DNA from: Candidatus Microgenomates bacterium
GTDB taxonomy: Bacteria > Patescibacteriota > Microgenomatia > JACQLA01
Assembly: GCA_016204255.1 (NCBI GenBank)
Contig: JACQLA010000005.1
Coordinates: 68,339 to 132,338 of the forward strand
Direction: 5' to 3'
Length of the DNA: 64,000 nucleotides
A program made the translations under genes and the position numbers. Positions 928-63,467 of this stretch are shown here, piece by piece. The notes under the pieces were generated by a model that was given only the letters and a program-made list of their open reading frames with translations, had not been told where the DNA came from and searched no databases. The first letter of the stretch is position 1. Each line of letters begins with the position of its first letter.

Positions 928-1020
928 TATTTTATTTACTTGTTTATTTTCGCCAGGAAACAAACTTGCTTATTTTCGTAAGGAAAAAGCTCGTCTATTT
1001 TTGCAAGAAAACAAGCTTGC

Positions 1021-1284
1021 TTATTTTTTTTCTTTTTTAAGTCGGGCCACGAAAATTTTGAAAATCTTTAGTCCAGTCTTAAGGCCTAAAAAAGTCCCGA
1101 TCCCGGAACCGGTGGGTAAAGTCATTTCTTCAGAAATTTTTCCCATATCGGTAAGAATTTTATTCACATTTTCAACCGTTTTTTTAAATTCTTTAAGAAT
1201 TTTGATAACCTCAAGGGCCACCAAAACTAAAATTACGGTTAAAACGCCAATAATAATAACAAAAACAATTTGTGGTATTTCCAT
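1021..1284 (-). CDS. DUF948-like small membrane protein (YtxG-like)
   Basis: The 87-aa protein has an N-terminal TM helix (IVFVIIIGVLTVILVLVAL) followed by an amphipathic helix. It is adjacent to the YtxH-like gene. Confidence 0.65.
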   Translation of the reverse strand: MEIPQIVFVIIIGVLTVILVLVALEVIKILKEFKKTVENVNKILTDMGKISEEMTLPTGSGIGTFLGLKTGLKIFKIFVARLKKEKK

Positions 1285-9567: not shown

Positions 9568-10464
9568 TTAAGAGAAGTCAGAGCTCTTATAGACCTTGGG
9601 CTTAAACCAATCTGATGGTGTAGTAGGCTCTTCCTTTTGATCCTCGGTTCTATTAATTTTGGGCAAAGAAGAATTTTGTATTCCAATGTTTTTGGCCTGG
9701 CGGTGTTGCTCTATGATAGGAGCACGCTTATTAACCCCGCTTCTTTTGCCACCGGCGCGTAAACAGGCAGCTGCGGCCTCAAAGGCCTCAGTTGAAGCCA
9801 AAGGCGAAGCAAACCCTTGAGTGGCAAAATCAATGCCCATCAAAAGGTTTGTCGCTATATCCGCGTCAAGACCAATTCCTAAGCTTTTTAGCAACCAAAC
9901 TACGATCTCGCTTGTTGAAGAAGCGTAGGGATGGAAAAAATTGACTACACCGTATTGCTTATTCTCAGGATTATGATCGATAACGACCACCGGGCGATTA
10001 GCAAATAGAGCCTGTTCTTCTCGATAAAAGGAGCCCAAATCGGCCAGATCGGCGGTAGATATAATGAAAATCAGGTCAGCGTCAACACCCTGGTAAGAAA
10101 ACTTAACTTTATCTTGAGAAAGAAGCCTAGTCTCATTGCGAGTCTGGATAACAAGATTAAATCTATCACCTTCGATATTATAACTGACTTTTTCGATTGA
10201 ACCTTCCGTGTAGGGAAAAGAAACAACCAGGTTTTTATTCCCTAAAGCATCTTTAAGCTTATTGATTCCGATTAAATTACCAAATTCGACAGTCGGCGCT
10301 TTGGGACAAGCCACAGAAACTGTTTTTCCCATCTTTCCTAAGGCCAAAAAAAGGCCCAAGCTGGCACCTAGACTATCAAGGCTGGGATTTTGCCCAGTAA
10401 GAATTAAAATATTCTGAGCTGAGGCCAATAGTGGCTGTAATTTTTCAATAGTATCCTGTTTCAT
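9568..10464 (-). CDS. DHH/DHHA1-family (NrnA-like) protein with degenerate catalytic motifs
   Basis: It has the DHH-family layout, but motif I is NPSLDS (expected PDGD), motif III is IDHN (expected DHH), and the DHHA1 motif is AGGKRSG (expected GGGH). It is located between infB and rpsO. Confidence 0.65.
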
Positions 10465-10546
10465 AATAAAAAAGTCTGTTCCAAGACTTTTAAGTCGCAG
10501 TAACTGCGACTTAAAATGCGAAATTCATTTCGCTGCTGAGTTATTG

Positions 10547-30478: not shown

Positions 30479-30553
30479 GTCATTCCGAGCGTAGTCGAGG
30501 AATCTTTTTCATCAAGGTCTTTAATTAGATCCCTCCACGTTGGTCGGGATGAC
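30479..30553. repeat. GTCATT-type palindromic element, copy a
   Basis: The arms gtcattccgagc (30479-30490) and ggtcgggatgac (30542-30553) form an imperfect inverted repeat, and the inner pair cgaggaatct / agatccctc also pairs. The element lies just upstream of the FemAB-like gene. Confidence 0.7.
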
Positions 30554-41788: not shown

Positions 41789-41956
41789 TGTCATTTCGAA
41801 TGGAATGAGAAATCTAAAAAGGGCGCATCTAAACGATGCCTAAATGCGTCTGTCATTGCGAGGAATCTCGCCAGAGGCGGATGACGAAGCAATCTAGATC
41901 GGGTAGATTCCTATATCAAGATTGCCAACGCCTCATTTTATTCGGCTCGCAATGAC
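41789..41956. repeat. GTCATT-type palindromic elements, copy b (half element 41789-41815 + full 105-bp element 41852-41956)
   Basis: The arms gtcattgcgag (41852-62) and ctcgcaatgac (41946-56) form a perfect 11-bp inverted repeat. The inner pairs are gaggcg/cgcctc and gcaatct/agattgc. The half element tgtcatttcgaatggaatgagaaatct is 25/27 identical to 43092-43118. Confidence 0.8.
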
Positions 41957-43092: not shown

Positions 43093-43220
43093 GTCATTCC
43101 GAATGAAATGAGAAATCCCGCCTTGTTGCGAGGCAGGTAGGCGCGAAGTGCCTCAATTCACGCTTCGCTAGATTTCTCGCTGGAGTTTACACTGAGCGTG
43201 ACGAATGTGCTCGAAATGAC
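43093..43220. repeat. GTCATT-type palindromic element, copy c (128 bp)
   Basis: The pairs are gtcattccga (43093-) with tcgaaatgac (43211-43220), gagaaatc with gatttctc, and gcgaag with cttcgc. The element lies upstream of rmuC. Confidence 0.75.
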
Positions 43221-43243
43221 GATGGATTATTTACAATTAAACT

Positions 43244-59562: not shown

Positions 59563-60723
59563 ATGCGTATCTTAGGAATTGAGAGCTCTTGTGATGAAAC
59601 CGGGGCGGCGATTGTCGAAGACGGAACAAAAATTTTATCCAATATTGTTGCCTCCTCTCAGGAATTACATATAAAAACCGGTGGCATTATTCCGGAAGTT
59701 GCCTCGCGCGAACAAATCAAATATATTGTTCCGGTCATCAATCAAGCACTTAAAGGAGCACTTCCTGAAACTCTAAACTCTGCGCCATATGTCCTGTCTC
59801 AAATAGACGCCATCGCAGTTACGGTTGGCCCAGGACTCATCGGCTCACTTTTGGTCGGCGTGGAAACAGCCAAAACATTGGCCTACCTTTGGAATAAACC
59901 GATTATCCCCGCTAACCATTTACTCGCTCATCTTTATGCTAACTGGGTCTCTCCCTTGTTATCGCAAGACCATAAAGTGGCGAAGCAATCCCTTAATCTC
60001 AATAGTAAGATTGCCGCGTCGCCTACGGCTCCTCGCAATGACGAATCTCAAACTCCAAGCTTCCCCGCCGTCGCTTTGATTGCTTCCGGCGGTCATACCG
60101 ACCTCCTTTTAATAAAGAATCACGGTAAAATCCGGTGGCTGGGAGGAACACGGGATGACGCGGCCGGTGAGGCTTTTGACAAAATCGCCCGACTTTTAGA
60201 ACTCCCCTATCCCGGCGGACCGGAAATTGCGGCCGAAGCCACAAAACTAAAAACTAAAAACTTAAAACTTACAATTAAGTTGCCGCGCCCATTGATGGAC
60301 GCCGATGATTTTGACTTCAGTTTTAGTGGACTAAAAACCGCTGTTTTAAGAGAAGTCAATAATCTCAAGGCTAAACACTATAATGATACATATTATTATA
60401 GTGAAATAATTCCTTCACTCGCCTACGAGGTTCAAGAGGCCATTACGGATGTTTTAGTTACTAAAACCATCCGCGCCGCCCAAAAATATCGGGTTAAATC
60501 AATCTTACTCGGCGGCGGTGTTGTGGCCAATGAAAGACTTCGAGAAAAAATGTCAAAATCTGTTCTTAAGTTTTTTGGTTCTTCAGTTTCAATGTTTGTG
60601 CCTCCGACCCGATTGTGCACCGATAATGCCGTCGTCATCGCTTCAGCCGCCTTTTTTAATTATAAACCTGTTCCTTGGAAAAAAATCCAAGCCCACCCGG
60701 ATCTTTACTTCCAGTCTCAATAG
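59563..60723 (+). CDS. tsaD: tRNA N6-adenosine threonylcarbamoyltransferase TsaD, with an internal ~30-aa insertion
   Basis: The motifs MRILGIESSCDETGAAIVE, GPGLIGSLLVG, ANHLLAH, SGGHT, DDAAGEAFDK and YPGGP are present. An SD sequence (aaggagag) lies upstream of the ATG at 59563, so the track start at 59473 is not used. Confidence 0.93.
   Translation: MRILGIESSCDETGAAIVEDGTKILSNIVASSQELHIKTGGIIPEVASREQIKYIVPVINQALKGALPETLNSAPYVLSQIDAIAVTVGPGLIGSLLVGVETAKTLAYLWNKPIIPANHLLAHLYANWVSPLLSQDHKVAKQSLNLNSKIAASPTAPRNDESQTPSFPAVALIASGGHTDLLLIKNHGKIRWLGGTRDDAAGEAFDKIARLLELPYPGGPEIAAEATKLKTKNLKLTIKLPRPLMDADDFDFSFSGLKTAVLREVNNLKAKHYNDTYYYSEIIPSLAYEVQEAITDVLVTKTIRAAQKYRVKSILLGGGVVANERLREKMSKSVLKFFGSSVSMFVPPTRLCTDNAVVIASAAFFNYKPVPWKKIQAHPDLYFQSQ
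59958..60042. repeat. GTCATT-type palindromic element copy embedded in frame in tsaD
   Basis: The sequence gttatcgcaag...ggcgaagcaatcc...aagattgcc...ctcgcaatgac is colinear with element b at 41852-41956. Confidence 0.7.
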
Positions 60724-60971: not shown

Positions 60972-63467
60972 ATGGATAAAACTTACAATTTTAAACAATC
61001 TGAGGAAAAATGGTATTCTTTTTGGGAAAAAGAGGGCTTTTTTAAGCCGAAAGTTGATCAAAAAAACCTGCCTGCTCGCCTCACGGCGAAGCGGGCCGGC
61101 AAGACAGGGAAGCCTTTTGTGATTGTCATTCCCCCACCCAACATTACCGGCTCATTACATATGGGCCACGCCCTTAATAATACTGTCCAGGATATTTTAA
61201 TCCGTCTCAGTCGAATGAAGGGCAACCCGACTCTTTGGATTCCCGGAACGGACCATGCCGGTATCGCCACCCAAAATGTGGTTGAGAAGAATTTAGCTAA
61301 AGAAGGAAAAAGTCGTTTTGACCTAGGTAAAGAGCAATTTGTTGAAAGGGTTTGGGAATGGAAAGAAAAGTATGGACATATCATTACCGACCAACTGAAA
61401 ACTTTAGGTTGTTCTTGCGACTGGTCGCGCCAGCGCTTTACAATGGATGAAAATTACCTTAAGGCTGTTAATGAGGCCTTTCGCCATTACTGGGAAAAGG
61501 GCTGGATCTATCGAGGCGAACGCTGTATCAACTGGTGTCCTCGCTGTGGAACAAGCCTTTCCGACCTTGAAGTAGTTTATAAAGAGGAAGAGGCAAAACT
61601 TTACTACATTAAGTATGGGCCAATAACGATTGCCACTGTCCGCCCAGAAACCAAATTGGGTGACACCGCCGTCGCCGTCAACCCCAAAGATCCCCGCTAT
61701 AAAGAATTTATCGACAAGACTATCGATATTCAGACCGTCTTGGGCCCGGCCAAAATGAAGGTTATTGCTGATGAGTCGATTGATACGAAATTCGGCACTG
61801 GTGCAATGAAAGTTACCCCGGCCCATGACCCCCATGATTTCGAACTGGGGGAAAAACATGGTCTTGAAAGAAAGCAGGTTATTGGGCCTGATGGCCGAAT
61901 GACCCAACTTGCCGGTAAATACGCCGGGTTAAAGGTAAGCGAGGCAAGAACACAGATTATTGAGGAGATGGAAAAAATTGGGATTTTGGAAAAAGTCGAG
62001 CCCTACCATCACAATGTCGCCACTTGCTATCGCTGTGGCAGAGTCTTGGAACCCTTGCTTTCAAAACAGTGGTTTTTAAAAATGGCTGATTTGGCAAAGC
62101 CGGCGATTAAGGTTGTTGTAGAGGGAAAAATTAAATTTGTCCCCTCCCGCTGGAAAAAAGTCTATCTTGACTGGCTGAAAAATATTCGGGATTGGTGTAT
62201 CTCGCGTCAAATTTGGTGGGGCATCCAGATCCCCGTTTGGCATTGCGGTGGACTGGAAAAAAGTGGACTTTACCGTCTTGGATTTCATGAAAGCGTCGTA
62301 CCGCAGGTTTTTGCCGACAAGACCAAAACCTACCGTCTGCGTGATCATCTGTTAAAAGTCGGGCAAGAGGTAGCTTTTGAGAATAGCCAGACTAAAAAAC
62401 TTTTTGGCTATGGGAAAATTACAAATATTGAACACACAACGGTTGGAGAAATTCAATTGGATGACCCGGCCCACAGTGCCACTTATCAAACCCGCCAACA
62501 ACTAATTGCCGCCTTCAAAAGACATCACCCGGAAAAGGAGATAAATGAAGGCACGCCAGCAATAATTTATACTTATCAATTTAAGTCTATTAAAGATTCC
62601 GCTGTCAAAAACGGCTGTGGGGAAATGATTGTTTCTACCGAAAAACCAAAGACATGTCCGACTTGCGGAGGAAGTCGTTTAATCCAGGACGCAGACACTT
62701 TAGACACCTGGTTTTCTTCTGCCCTTTGGCCTTTCGCCACTTTAGGTTGGCCTAAAGAAACTGCGGATTTAAAATATTTCTATCCCACGACCGTTTTATC
62801 AACTGCCCGCGATATTATCTTTCTTTGGGTGGCCCGAATGGTTTTCTCCAGCCTTGAATTTATGGACAAAGAGATTCCTTTTTCCCAGGTCTATATTCAT
62901 CCGACCATTTTTAACAAGGAAGGAAAAAGAATGAGTAAATCTTTGGGGACGGGCGTTGATCCTTTGGAGTTAATTGAAAAATATGGCGCTGACGCAACCC
63001 GCTTTGGTTTGATGTATATGAATACTGGAACTCAAGATATTAAATTTTCTGAGGAAGCAATTTTGGCCGCGAGAAATTTTTGCAATAAAATTTGGAATGC
63101 CTCCCGTTTCGTTCTCTCTCAGCCTAAACCCTACCCCCTATCCCCTGGACCCTCTAATCATCCCGACGACCAGTGGATCCTTGAGCAATTGGAGAAAACT
63201 ATTAAGTCGGTAAACGCCGACTTAGATCACTTCCGTTTTGGGCAGGCGGCTCACACTTTATACGACTTTTTCTGGCATGATTTTTGCGATAAGTATTTGG
63301 AGATTAGCAAGAAAAGACGTGAAGAAGCGCAACCGGTCCTGCTGTATGTGTTGGAAAATTCTTTAAAACTTCTCCACCCGTTTATGCCTTTCATCACCGA
63401 GGAAATTTATCAGCTCCTCCCCCATCACGAAAAATCCATAATGACTGCCGACTGGCCTAAGGCATAA
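60972..63467 (+). CDS. valS: valyl-tRNA synthetase with inserted ASCH-like domain; no C-terminal coiled coil
   Basis: It has the HIGH-type motif (PPPNITGSLHMGH), the CP1 editing domain (TVRPETKLGDTAVAVNP and GTGAMKVTPAHDPHDF), the KMSKS-type motif (RMSKSLG) and an anticodon-binding domain. A 123-aa insert lies between Cys425 and Cys549. Confidence 0.95.
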   Translation: MDKTYNFKQSEEKWYSFWEKEGFFKPKVDQKNLPARLTAKRAGKTGKPFVIVIPPPNITGSLHMGHALNNTVQDILIRLSRMKGNPTLWIPGTDHAGIATQNVVEKNLAKEGKSRFDLGKEQFVERVWEWKEKYGHIITDQLKTLGCSCDWSRQRFTMDENYLKAVNEAFRHYWEKGWIYRGERCINWCPRCGTSLSDLEVVYKEEEAKLYYIKYGPITIATVRPETKLGDTAVAVNPKDPRYKEFIDKTIDIQTVLGPAKMKVIADESIDTKFGTGAMKVTPAHDPHDFELGEKHGLERKQVIGPDGRMTQLAGKYAGLKVSEARTQIIEEMEKIGILEKVEPYHHNVATCYRCGRVLEPLLSKQWFLKMADLAKPAIKVVVEGKIKFVPSRWKKVYLDWLKNIRDWCISRQIWWGIQIPVWHCGGLEKSGLYRLGFHESVVPQVFADKTKTYRLRDHLLKVGQEVAFENSQTKKLFGYGKITNIEHTTVGEIQLDDPAHSATYQTRQQLIAAFKRHHPEKEINEGTPAIIYTYQFKSIKDSAVKNGCGEMIVSTEKPKTCPTCGGSRLIQDADTLDTWFSSALWPFATLGWPKETADLKYFYPTTVLSTARDIIFLWVARMVFSSLEFMDKEIPFSQVYIHPTIFNKEGKRMSKSLGTGVDPLELIEKYGADATRFGLMYMNTGTQDIKFSEEAILAARNFCNKIWNASRFVLSQPKPYPLSPGPSNHPDDQWILEQLEKTIKSVNADLDHFRFGQAAHTLYDFFWHDFCDKYLEISKKRREEAQPVLLYVLENSLKLLHPFMPFITEEIYQLLPHHEKSIMTADWPKA

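What the first reader, a model, noticed from the sequence alone, without database searches (positions are those of the whole stretch)
59958..60042. Intergenic palindromic repeat inserted in frame inside the essential tsaD gene
TsaD has 51 residues between the conserved ANHLLAH and ASGGHT segments. From my memory of E. coli and T. maritima TsaD, about 17-19 are expected.

The extra DNA is colinear with the intergenic palindromic element at 41852-41956. The right arm ctcgcaatgacg is 12/12 identical, the internal blocks gaagcaatc and aagattgcc are identical, and the left arm gttatcgcaag matches gtcattgcgag at 8/11. The internal pairings ggcga/tcgcc and gcaatc/gattgc are retained.

The reading frame stays open, so the element is translated as roughly LLSQDHKVAKQSLNLNSKIAASPTAPRNDES. 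This is the behaviour known for Rickettsia palindromic elements. I am not aware of it being described for this repeat family or for CPR-like genomes.
Basis: partly seen in the sequence, partly recalled or inferred. Interest (0 to 1): 0.78.

Follow-up and report, generated by a model that had tools for sequence, protein, structure and literature searches.

The report
Palindromic repeat translated inside tsaD
An 85-base palindromic repeat of a widespread bacterial family sits in frame in a loop of the essential tRNA-modification gene tsaD of a CPR bacterium. This behaviour is known from Rickettsia, and here it recurs at the same loop in at least 24 CPR tsaD genes and in many other CPR housekeeping genes.

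Summary
tsaD (59563-60723) carries about 31 extra residues between HxxxH and SGGHT. The DNA at 59958-60042 is a nested palindrome colinear with the intergenic element at 41852-41956. A profile built only from copies in other genomes hits the 64 kb window exactly twice: the tsaD insert (E=2e-13) and that intergenic element (E=1e-8).

The nearest TsaD relatives (62-63% identity) lack the insert. Twenty-three other CPR tsaD genes carry family copies in the same loop, in three reading-frame configurations and with varying lengths and insertion points. This argues for repeated insertion.

The same subtype lies in frame in Fpg, LeuRS, UvrC, FolD, ValS, Tgt and other genes.

Each half is a [C/T]GTC-ATTGC...GCAAT-CC unit. 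These features match the CGTC-tagged REP superfamily of Di Nocera et al. 2013, which includes Rickettsia RPE-4 and RPE-6.

All intragenic copies are free of stop codons, so the insert is most likely translated. AlphaFold predicts a low-confidence coil. The window copy is the most decayed of the set.

The behaviour is known, but I found no report of it in CPR or in tsaD. Whether the tsaD loop is a targeted site or merely a permissive one is open.

The parts
59563..60723 (+). tsaD gene (386 aa plus stop), the host of the insert
   Evidence: Pfam TsaD E=4e-76. The protein is 100% identical to NCBI TsaD MBI4100635.1. HxxxH, SGGH, DDAAGE and CTDN are invariant in the 72-sequence alignment.
59958..60042 (+). 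In-frame inverted dimer of CGTC-type REP units (85 nt, flanked by T at 59957 and G at 60043). It is translated as about LLSQDHKVAKQSLNLNSKIAASPTAPRND.
   Evidence: nhmmer E=2.4e-13 with a profile built without any window sequence. Alignment. No counterpart in solved TsaD structures.
59958..59992 (+). Left unit: decayed head and stem GTTATCGCAAG, inner hairpin CCAT-AAA-GTGG (59970-59980), GAAGCAATC (59982-59990), and tail CC.
   Evidence: Three transitions relative to GTCATTGCGAG. The same subtype GACCAYRAARTGGCGAAGCAA occurs in L004 and L018 tsaD and at 57 metagenome places.
59993..60006 (+). Variable spacer between the two units
   Evidence: This segment is not alignable between copies.
60007..60043 (+). 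Right unit, inverted: AAGATTGCC, inner hairpin GCC-TAC-GGC (60021-60029), and CTCGCAATGAC-G, which is the CGTC head on the minus strand.
   Evidence: 36/36 identical to the tsaD insert of a Daviesbacteria MAG (L031) and 32/34 identical to copies in Tsuneonella, an alphaproteobacterium.
41852..41956 (.). Intergenic full-length copy of the same family (105 nt), lying between two minus-strand ORFs
   Evidence: nhmmer E=1.1e-8. Hairpin of -42.4 kcal/mol, z=-3.8. No spanning ORF.
41790..41815 (+). Single related unit (GTCATTTCGAA...GAGAAATC), intergenic
   Evidence: Read directly from the sequence.
43093..43222 (.). Related dimer with ATTCC/ATTTC-type units (GTCATTCCGAA...CTCGAAATGACG), intergenic
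30479..30553 (.). Related dimer (GTCATTCCGAG...TCGGGATGAC), intergenic

Best explanation
A non-autonomous palindromic repeat inserted into the DNA that encodes the linker between the two ASKHA subdomains of TsaD. The repeat is an inverted dimer of two CGTC-type REP units, which makes it REPIN-like and RPE-like. The insertion site lies between the HxxxH metal site and the strand that leads to SGGH.

The copy happened to have no stop codon and to preserve the reading frame, so the essential gene survived. The repeat is now transcribed and translated as a roughly 29-31 residue, probably disordered, surface loop.

The copy has since begun to decay. It has three transitions in the left arm and a weakened hairpin, so it is probably no longer mobile.

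The same process has happened repeatedly in CPR bacteria, at this loop of tsaD and in permissive loops of many other housekeeping genes. Selection removes every insertion that is not open and in frame.

Shown: family membership, absence from the nearest relatives, recurrence, and the open-frame filter.
Inferred: translation, neutrality of the loop, and the mode of mobilisation (the transposase is unknown).
For: Family membership:
- A profile built from other genomes hits only the tsaD insert and the intergenic copy in the window.
- The conserved blocks are colinear.

Lineage-specific gain:
- The closest TsaDs (P0002-P0007 and P0069, 62-63% identity) lack the insert. The window TsaD nests among non-carriers in the NJ tree.

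The insert is younger than the host divergence, or is homogenised:
- tsaD outside the loop is 55-64% identical at the nucleotide level and 33-41% at third codon positions.
- The element is 73-87% identical, with a 36/36 run shared with L031.

Recurrence:
- 20 of 98 genome-scan hits are CPR tsaD genes with the family in the same loop. Adding L004, L006, L007 and the window gives 24.
- There are three reading-frame configurations (SLR..PRND, VIx..PRND, VIA..LAMT), lengths of 73-132 nt, and insertion points that differ by several codons.
- Both A/A homodimers and B/A heterodimers occur, and both also exist intergenically.

Other hosts, in frame:
- Fpg, GT4 glycosyltransferase, LeuRS, SucD-like protein, metallophosphoesterase, UvrC, M23 peptidase, Wzy, FolD and a methyltransferase.
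- ValS-like aaRS and Tgt, the latter with three copies.

Translatability filter:
- Only 38% of orientation-by-frame readings of 27 intergenic copies are free of stops.
- All 20 TsaD-context hits are open.

Structure:
- AF2 mean pLDDT is 88. The insert is coil with pLDDT below 50 at residues 137-155, between helix 119-128 and strand 169-174.

Precedent:
- Intragenic CGTC REP dimers encoding 20-30 aa occur in R. conorii and other species.
Against: - There is no direct evidence of translation, neither proteomics nor RNA-seq.
- No empty-site allele was found in a close relative. The nearest relative is only 63% identical, so the insertion event itself is inferred.
- No target-site duplication and no cognate transposase were found.
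- Perfect arms in many deeply diverged tsaD genes could also reflect one old insertion kept uniform by gene conversion or by selection on the hairpin. Within the Daviesbacteria-like clade all sampled members carry an element at the same point. That sample was ascertained by the element itself.
- Low pLDDT may only reflect a shallow alignment over the insert.
Confidence: 0.85

Rival explanations
1. There was a single ancient insertion in an early CPR ancestor, inherited vertically. Its palindromic arms were kept intact because the hairpin or the peptide has a function in tsaD, for example mRNA stability, attenuation, or a CPR-specific protein contact.
For: The loop is occupied in both Microgenomates-type and Parcubacteria-type tsaD genes. 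All seven Daviesbacteria-like genes sampled have an element at the same codon position. Intragenic copies fold as strongly as intergenic ones.
Against: - Carriers are scattered among non-carriers in the tree, and the window's closest relatives lack the insert.
- Reading frames, lengths, unit types and insertion points differ between carriers.
- The arms match the consensus of the mobile family rather than showing covariation.
- The same subtype occurs at 55 non-tsaD places.
- The window copy is decaying.
Confidence: 0.08
2. The tsaD loop is an actively targeted integration site for these repeats, through sequence-specific or structure-specific insertion, rather than merely a permissive site.
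For: At least 24 tsaD genes carry the family in one short loop, whereas only a few copies lie elsewhere in TsaD (the L032 second site and the L064/L071 half unit). The left flanks are pyrimidine-rich.
Against: No conserved target motif or target-site duplication was found. Insertion points vary by up to about five codons. The scan was designed to find only tsaD, so no comparison of rates with other genes exists. For one subtype, tsaD accounts for 2 of 57 places.
Confidence: 0.15
3. The insert is removed from the transcript or bypassed, like an intron or through processing at the hairpin, so it is not part of the protein.
For: The element forms a long hairpin. CPR genomes are known for insertions in rRNA and tRNA genes (titles listed).
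Against: An excised element would not need to be free of stops or to preserve the frame. All 20 TsaD-context copies are open, against 38% open readings in intergenic copies. There is no Rfam match.
Confidence: 0.04
4. The similarity is due to chance or convergence, and the loop is an ordinary lineage-specific expansion.
For: Pairwise local alignment alone is weak: z=4.5, and an unrelated tile scores as high. Many CPR TsaDs have long unrelated loops.
Against: The independent profile gives E=2.4e-13. There is a 36/36 identity with another genome's insert. Related copies show perfect arms.
Confidence: 0.01

Closest known systems
CGTC-tagged REP superfamily (Di Nocera, De Gregorio and Rocco 2013, BMC Genomics 14:522; PMC3733652)
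   Same: - Terminal CGTC or TGTC tag.
- Stem that starts with A-T and T-A pairs.
- Short C-rich tail (CCA in the alphaproteobacterial copies seen here).
- Units arranged as inverted dimers with a spacer that can fold into one long hairpin.
- Homodimers and heterodimers both occur.
- Mostly intergenic, with some dimers intragenic and encoding 20-30 aa, including in tRNA-related and repair genes.
- No dedicated transposase found.
   Different: The published families have 8-9 bp stems and 4-5 nt loops. Here the outer stem is 5 bp (ATTGC/GCAAT) and encloses a 12-25 nt interior with a variable inner hairpin. CPR is not among the phyla in that paper. I could not see the paper's figures, so identity with one of CGTC-1 to CGTC-4 is not established.
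Rickettsia palindromic elements (RPE). RPE-6 and RPE-4 equal CGTC-1 and CGTC-4 according to Di Nocera et al.; RPE-1 was described by Ogata et al. 2000 (from my own knowledge).
   Same: Palindromic repeats inserted in frame in essential genes of a reduced genome and kept as extra peptide segments. R. conorii dimers read SFLRKQES...DSRFRGND. This is the same head and tail reading (S-F/L-x-R ... R-x-N-D) as SLR...PRND here.
   Different: The phylum differs (CPR versus Alphaproteobacteria), and so do the interior sequence and the host gene (tsaD). Recurrence at one loop across many species has not been reported for RPEs as far as I found.
REPINs mobilised by RAYT transposases (Bertels and Rainey 2011; PMC3116915, listed)
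   Same: Two inverted REP units plus a spacer form a long hairpin. The elements are non-autonomous and dispersed.
   Different: REPINs carry GTAG heads and have a single-copy RAYT flanked by REPs. Here the head is CGTC, and no RAYT was found in the window. The one CPR Y1_Tnp gene seen (L005) is flanked by unrelated hairpins.
Bacterial MITEs that insert into genes, such as the Coxiella MITEs (PMC5896051, listed)
   Same: Short elements with terminal inverted repeats that can add peptide segments to proteins.
   Different: No target-site duplication and no related IS element were found here.

Membership tests
TsaD/Kae1/Qri7 (PF00814) | Pfam profile match above the gathering score | tested here: met
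   256.6 bits against a cutoff of 24.8. The match is split into two stretches by the insert.
TsaD/Kae1/Qri7 (PF00814) | Catalytic motifs: HxxxH, SGGH turn, C-terminal CTDN Asp | tested here: met
   H119, H123, S175-H178 and D354 are invariant columns in the 72-sequence alignment.
CGTC-tagged REP superfamily | Terminal CGTC (or TGTC) tag | tested here: met
   The right end reads ...AATGAC-G, which is CGTC on the minus strand. The left end is T-GTT (decayed). Orthologous copies have C/T-GTC.
CGTC-tagged REP superfamily | Stem begins with complementary A/T residues at positions 1 and 2 | tested here: met
   ATTGC...GCAAT in A units and ATTCC...GGAAT in B units.
CGTC-tagged REP superfamily | Stem of 8-9 bp and loop of 4-5 nt | tested here: not met
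   The outer stem is 5 bp and encloses 12-25 nt with an inner hairpin. The paper allows longer loops in Bradyrhizobium CGTC-1.
CGTC-tagged REP superfamily | Short unpaired tail (consensus CCA) | tested here: inconclusive
   The tail is CC(C) in the window unit, C-T or C-C in other CPR copies, and CCA in the Bradyrhizobium and Sphingomonadales copies of the same family.
CGTC-tagged REP superfamily | Units mostly organised as inverted dimers with a spacer | tested here: met
   All full copies are inverted dimers with tags facing outward, either homodimers or heterodimers.
Rickettsia palindromic elements | In-frame insertion in protein-coding genes with the frame preserved | tested here: met
Rickettsia palindromic elements | Nucleotide homology to the RPE consensus sequences | not tested
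   No RPE DNA was available. Only peptide readings from the supplement could be compared.
Rickettsia palindromic elements | Insert lies on the protein surface away from the active site | tested here: inconclusive
   AF2 predicts a low-confidence coil between the subdomains. The tRNA contacts listed for T. maritima TsaD do not include this loop. No coordinates were available to measure exposure.
REPIN/RAYT system | Two inverted REPs forming a long hairpin | tested here: met
REPIN/RAYT system | GTAG head | tested here: not met
   The head is CGTC or TGTC.
REPIN/RAYT system | Cognate RAYT gene flanked by the REPs | tested here: inconclusive
   tblastn with a CPR Y1_Tnp protein found nothing in the window or in the other loci held at that point (L001-L105). 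That gene is not flanked by this family. Only 64 kb of the genome was available.
MITE | Terminal inverted repeats plus a target-site duplication | tested here: not met
   Terminal inverted repeats of 11-12 nt are present. No duplication was seen at 20 insertion sites.

The most novel reading that the evidence does not exclude
The inter-subdomain loop of TsaD is a specifically targeted or domesticated landing site for CGTC-type REP dimers throughout the CPR. This would mean either a site-specific insertion mechanism for a repeat class with no known transposase, or a function of the hairpin or peptide linked to t6A synthesis in these reduced bacteria. More broadly, repeat insertion followed by decay would be a main source of the many lineage-specific loop expansions in CPR proteins.
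Probability: 0.15. Interest if true: 0.75.

Novelty: new member of a known kind. Interest (0 to 1): 0.55.

Why it matters
- It extends the phenomenon of selfish palindromic DNA translated inside essential genes from Rickettsia and a few Proteobacteria to the CPR/Patescibacteria. These are another group with very small genomes and little intergenic space.
- One short loop of an essential enzyme has been hit again and again.
- One repeat unit is nearly identical between CPR bacteria and an alphaproteobacterium, which raises the question of what keeps it conserved.
- It offers a concrete source for lineage-specific loop insertions in CPR proteins.
- It has a practical consequence: such inserts split profile matches and inflate apparent divergence in annotation and phylogeny.

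Tried and rejected
- **Protein-profile search with the insert peptides**. The aim was to list host proteins at scale. Only 176 candidates came back, and the 16 hits were all short hypothetical ORFs, so it was uninformative.
- **Rfam at gathering threshold on the whole window.** No match.
- **Literature search by sequence motif and by peptide.** It returned only unrelated primers. Searches combining CPR/Patescibacteria with REP/REPIN/RAYT/MITE, or TsaD with insertion, found no paper on this.
- **Pairwise local alignment of the insert against the intergenic copy.** It was too weak to decide on its own.
- **Search for a RAYT-like transposase.** None was found in the window.
- **Target-site motif or duplication.** None was found.
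- **Test of whether intragenic copies have weaker hairpins than intergenic ones.** No difference (p=0.26). Only the window copy is weak.
- **The 15/16 match at 9800-9818.** I considered it a possible second intragenic remnant. There are no arms or partner nearby, so it is probably chance.

Full report
**1. The observation**

The ORF at 59563-60723 (+) is tsaD. Pfam TsaD matches at E=4e-76, and the protein is 100% identical to an NCBI TsaD from a candidate-phylum MAG. The same protein, insert included, is encoded on contigs from three independent data sets: GCA_964420235.1, SRR4343430 and SRR12113430. The insert is therefore not an assembly artefact.

Between the HxxxH motif and SGGHT there are 51 residues. 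The shortest of the 120 best homologs have 19-22. Against solved TsaD structures, residues 129-165 have no counterpart, opposite 5-7 residues in 8iey and 6nak.

The DNA at 59958-60042 reads GTTATCGCAAG ... GAAGCAATC ... AAGATTGCC ... CTCGCAATGAC. The intergenic element at 41852-41956 has the same blocks in the same order. Both fold as nested hairpins.

**2. Is the similarity more than chance?**

The two sequences compared alone give only a modest signal. The local alignment has z=4.5, 1 of 2000 shuffles reaches the observed score, and an unrelated tile near 9800 scores as high.

The decisive test used no window sequence. I found four TsaD orthologs (57-61% identity) whose loop peptides looked like translated repeats. 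I fetched their DNA. All four carry a perfect [T/C]GTCATTGCGAG ... CGAAGCAATC ... AGATTGCC ... CCTCGCAATGAC[A/G] element in the same loop. An nhmmer profile of those four hits the 64 kb window exactly twice: the tsaD insert (E=2.4e-13) and the intergenic element (E=1.1e-8).

In the window only the tsaD copy is intragenic. Related units at 30479-30553, 41790-41815 and 43093-43222 are intergenic.

**3. Anatomy**

Each element is an inverted pair of units with the heads facing outward. A unit consists of:
- a head [C/T]GTC;
- an outer stem ATTGC...GCAAT (type A) or ATTCC...GGAAT (type B);
- an interior GAG-(variable hairpin, often with a GAA loop)-CGAA;
- a C-rich tail.

The inner hairpin shows compensatory change between copies. 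It is CCAT/ATGG in L004, CCAC/GTGG in L018 and GGCCAC/GTGGCC in L058.

A/A homodimers and B/A heterodimers both occur, in tsaD and in intergenic DNA. Heterodimers inside tsaD are therefore ordinary family members and not recombinants.

No target-site duplication or conserved target motif is visible at 20 insertion sites.

**4. Gain in this lineage, and recurrence**

The window's closest TsaDs (P0002-P0007 and P0069, 62-63% identity) have unrelated loops of 21-38 residues. In a loop-masked NJ tree the window protein nests among these non-carriers.

A scan of 185,579 species genomes for the right arm placed 25-55 nt upstream of the SGGHT codons gave 98 hits. By my own estimate about 67 are expected by chance. 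Twenty of the 98 are TsaD genes that cluster with CPR TsaDs in the loop-masked tree and carry the family in this loop. They are titled Daviesbacteria, Levyibacteriota, Gottesmanbacteria, Staskawiczbacteria and Parcubacteria, plus several MAGs with doubtful titles. With L004, L006, L007 and the window, that makes 24 genes.

These genes differ in four ways:
- reading-frame configuration (SLR..PRND, VIx..PRND, VIA..LAMT);
- length (73-132 nt);
- unit type;
- insertion point, from 3 to 8 codons after YANW[ILV].

Four carry only half an element (L013, L040, L072, L078). These look like deletion remnants.

**5. Age**

Between the window and nine other carriers, tsaD outside the loop is 55-64% identical in nucleotides and 33-41% at third positions. 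The elements are 73-87% identical. The window's right unit is 36/36 identical to that of L031. At the 58% background identity that has a probability of about 3e-9 (my arithmetic).

The same unit is 32/34 identical to copies in Tsuneonella, an alphaproteobacterium. Copies thus stay close to a cross-phylum consensus. The tsaD copies are therefore either much younger than the host divergence or are kept uniform at the DNA level.

Scattered carriers, different frames and different unit types favour repeated insertion. Within the Daviesbacteria-like clade, one ancestral insertion followed by turnover cannot be excluded.

**6. Not only tsaD**

The window's left-unit subtype (GACCAYRAARTGGCGAAGCAA, read as SLRDHEVAKQS) occurs at 57 places in metagenome contigs. 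Only two of these are tsaD. Many are short intergenic stretches.

Others lie in frame in long ORFs identified by Pfam: Fpg/MutM, a GT4 glycosyltransferase, LeuRS, a succinyl-CoA-ligase-like protein, a metallophosphoesterase, UvrC, an M23 peptidase, an O-antigen ligase, FolD and a methyltransferase.

Further examples come from the genome loci:
- a ValS-like synthetase carries a dimer between its catalytic and anticodon-binding domains;
- a Tgt carries three;
- one TsaD (L032) carries two.

**7. Translation**

In 27 intergenic full-length copies only 38% of the six possible readings are free of stops. All 20 TsaD-context copies are open in the TsaD frame. This is what selection on a translated insert predicts, and it is not expected if the element were removed from the RNA.

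AlphaFold2 on a 72-sequence alignment gives a confident TsaD fold (mean pLDDT 88.3). The insert is coil, with pLDDT below 50 at residues 137-155, between helix 119-128 and strand 169-174. This segment is the linker between the two subdomains.

The tRNA contacts described for T. maritima TsaBD are the alpha1-alpha2 hairpin, alpha5, alpha7 and the SGGH turn. They do not include this loop.

All catalytic motifs are intact.

**8. State of the window copy**

Its left arm carries three transitions (GTCATTGCGAG to GTTATCGCAAG). Its hairpin is the weakest of 21 intragenic copies, at -0.22 kcal/mol per nt against -0.35 to -0.58. It is an ageing copy.

**9. Comparison with what is known**

Di Nocera et al. 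2013 (PMC3733652) defined the CGTC-tagged REP superfamily by these features:
- a CGTC or TGTC head;
- stems starting with A/T pairs;
- a CCA tail;
- mostly inverted dimers, both homodimers and heterodimers;
- no dedicated transposase.

They assign R. conorii RPE-6 and RPE-4 to it. They list intragenic dimers encoding 20-30 residues, for example SFLRKQES...DSRFRGND, including in repair and tRNA-related genes.

The present family shares the head, the A/T start, the tail and the dimer organisation. It fails the stem and loop dimensions: a 5 bp outer stem with a long structured interior, against 8-9 bp stems with 4-5 nt loops. I therefore call it a variant within, or next to, that superfamily. It works like an RPE.

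No paper in the searchable library connects REPs, REPINs or MITEs with CPR bacteria or with tsaD.

**10. Open points**

- It is unresolved whether the tsaD loop is targeted or merely tolerant.
- What mobilises these units is unknown.
- Why one unit sequence is conserved from Alphaproteobacteria to CPR is unknown.

**Verdict**

It is ordinary in kind, but it appears in a new lineage and host gene and recurs to a notable degree.

Noticed in passing
window 30479-30553, 41790-41815, 43093-43222: There are three further intergenic elements of sister unit types (ATTCC/GGAAT, ATTTC/GAAAT, ...GGGATGAC): one singleton and two dimers. The window thus holds at least five members of the wider GTC-ATTNC...GNAAT-C group.
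   Followed up: partly
window 63117-63150 (valS, residues about 716-727, KPYPLSPGP): A C-rich stretch CCTAAACCCTACCCCCTATCCCCTGGACCC lies at the ValS site where another CPR ValS (L064) carries a REP dimer. Similar peptides (PKPYTLNP, NPYPLTP) fill the TsaD loop of the window's nearest relatives (P0004, P0005, P0033, P0089). This may be a second short repeat family that uses the same permissive loops.
   Followed up: partly
window 9800-9818 (inside the minus-strand ORF 9568-10524): GGCGAAGCAAACCCTT matches the insert's inner block GGCGAAGCAATCCCTT at 15/16. No arms or partner lie nearby, so it is probably chance.
   Followed up: partly
L032 7073-7158; L064 4771-4812; L071 3842-3891: These TsaD genes hold a second family copy at other positions. 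L032 has a full dimer near residue 270. L064 and L071 have half units (PKKRLPRPFGARND) near residue 75.
   Followed up: partly
L077 3399-4778 (-): The Tgt gene (queuine tRNA-ribosyltransferase) of a Parcubacteria MAG carries three in-frame dimers of the family.
   Followed up: yes
L026 2507-2625 and 3067-3186; L053 200-278: Alphaproteobacterial copies (Tsuneonella, Bradyrhizobium) of the same family have perfect CGTC heads and CCA tails. The Tsuneonella right unit is 32/34 identical to the window's right unit, a striking conservation across phyla.
   Followed up: partly
L005 5279-5977 and flanks: A Y1_Tnp-like (IS200/RAYT-type) gene in a Gottesmanbacteria contig is flanked by its own hairpins (CAAGAGGACCTCTTG and AAGAGGTCCTCTT) and not by the CGTC-type units.
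   Followed up: partly
TsaD homologs P0008-P0120 (loop region): Many CPR TsaD loops contain other repeat-like peptides, such as TAVDGRRKAEDG, SENSESQQVRKSDNLKIR, TVKQLNSRTVKQLNS and VIPSEVEES...GMT. The loop seems to collect several kinds of repetitive DNA.
   Followed up: no
L018, L022, L040, L048, L064, L072, L079: These contigs are titled Gammaproteobacteria or Pseudomonadales MAGs. Their TsaD proteins cluster with those of CPR bacteria, so the record titles look unreliable.
   Followed up: no
window 939-1027: A tandem array of 3.5 copies of a 26-nt unit (CTTGCTTATTTTCGCAAGGAAACAAG). The unit is itself partly palindromic.
   Followed up: no
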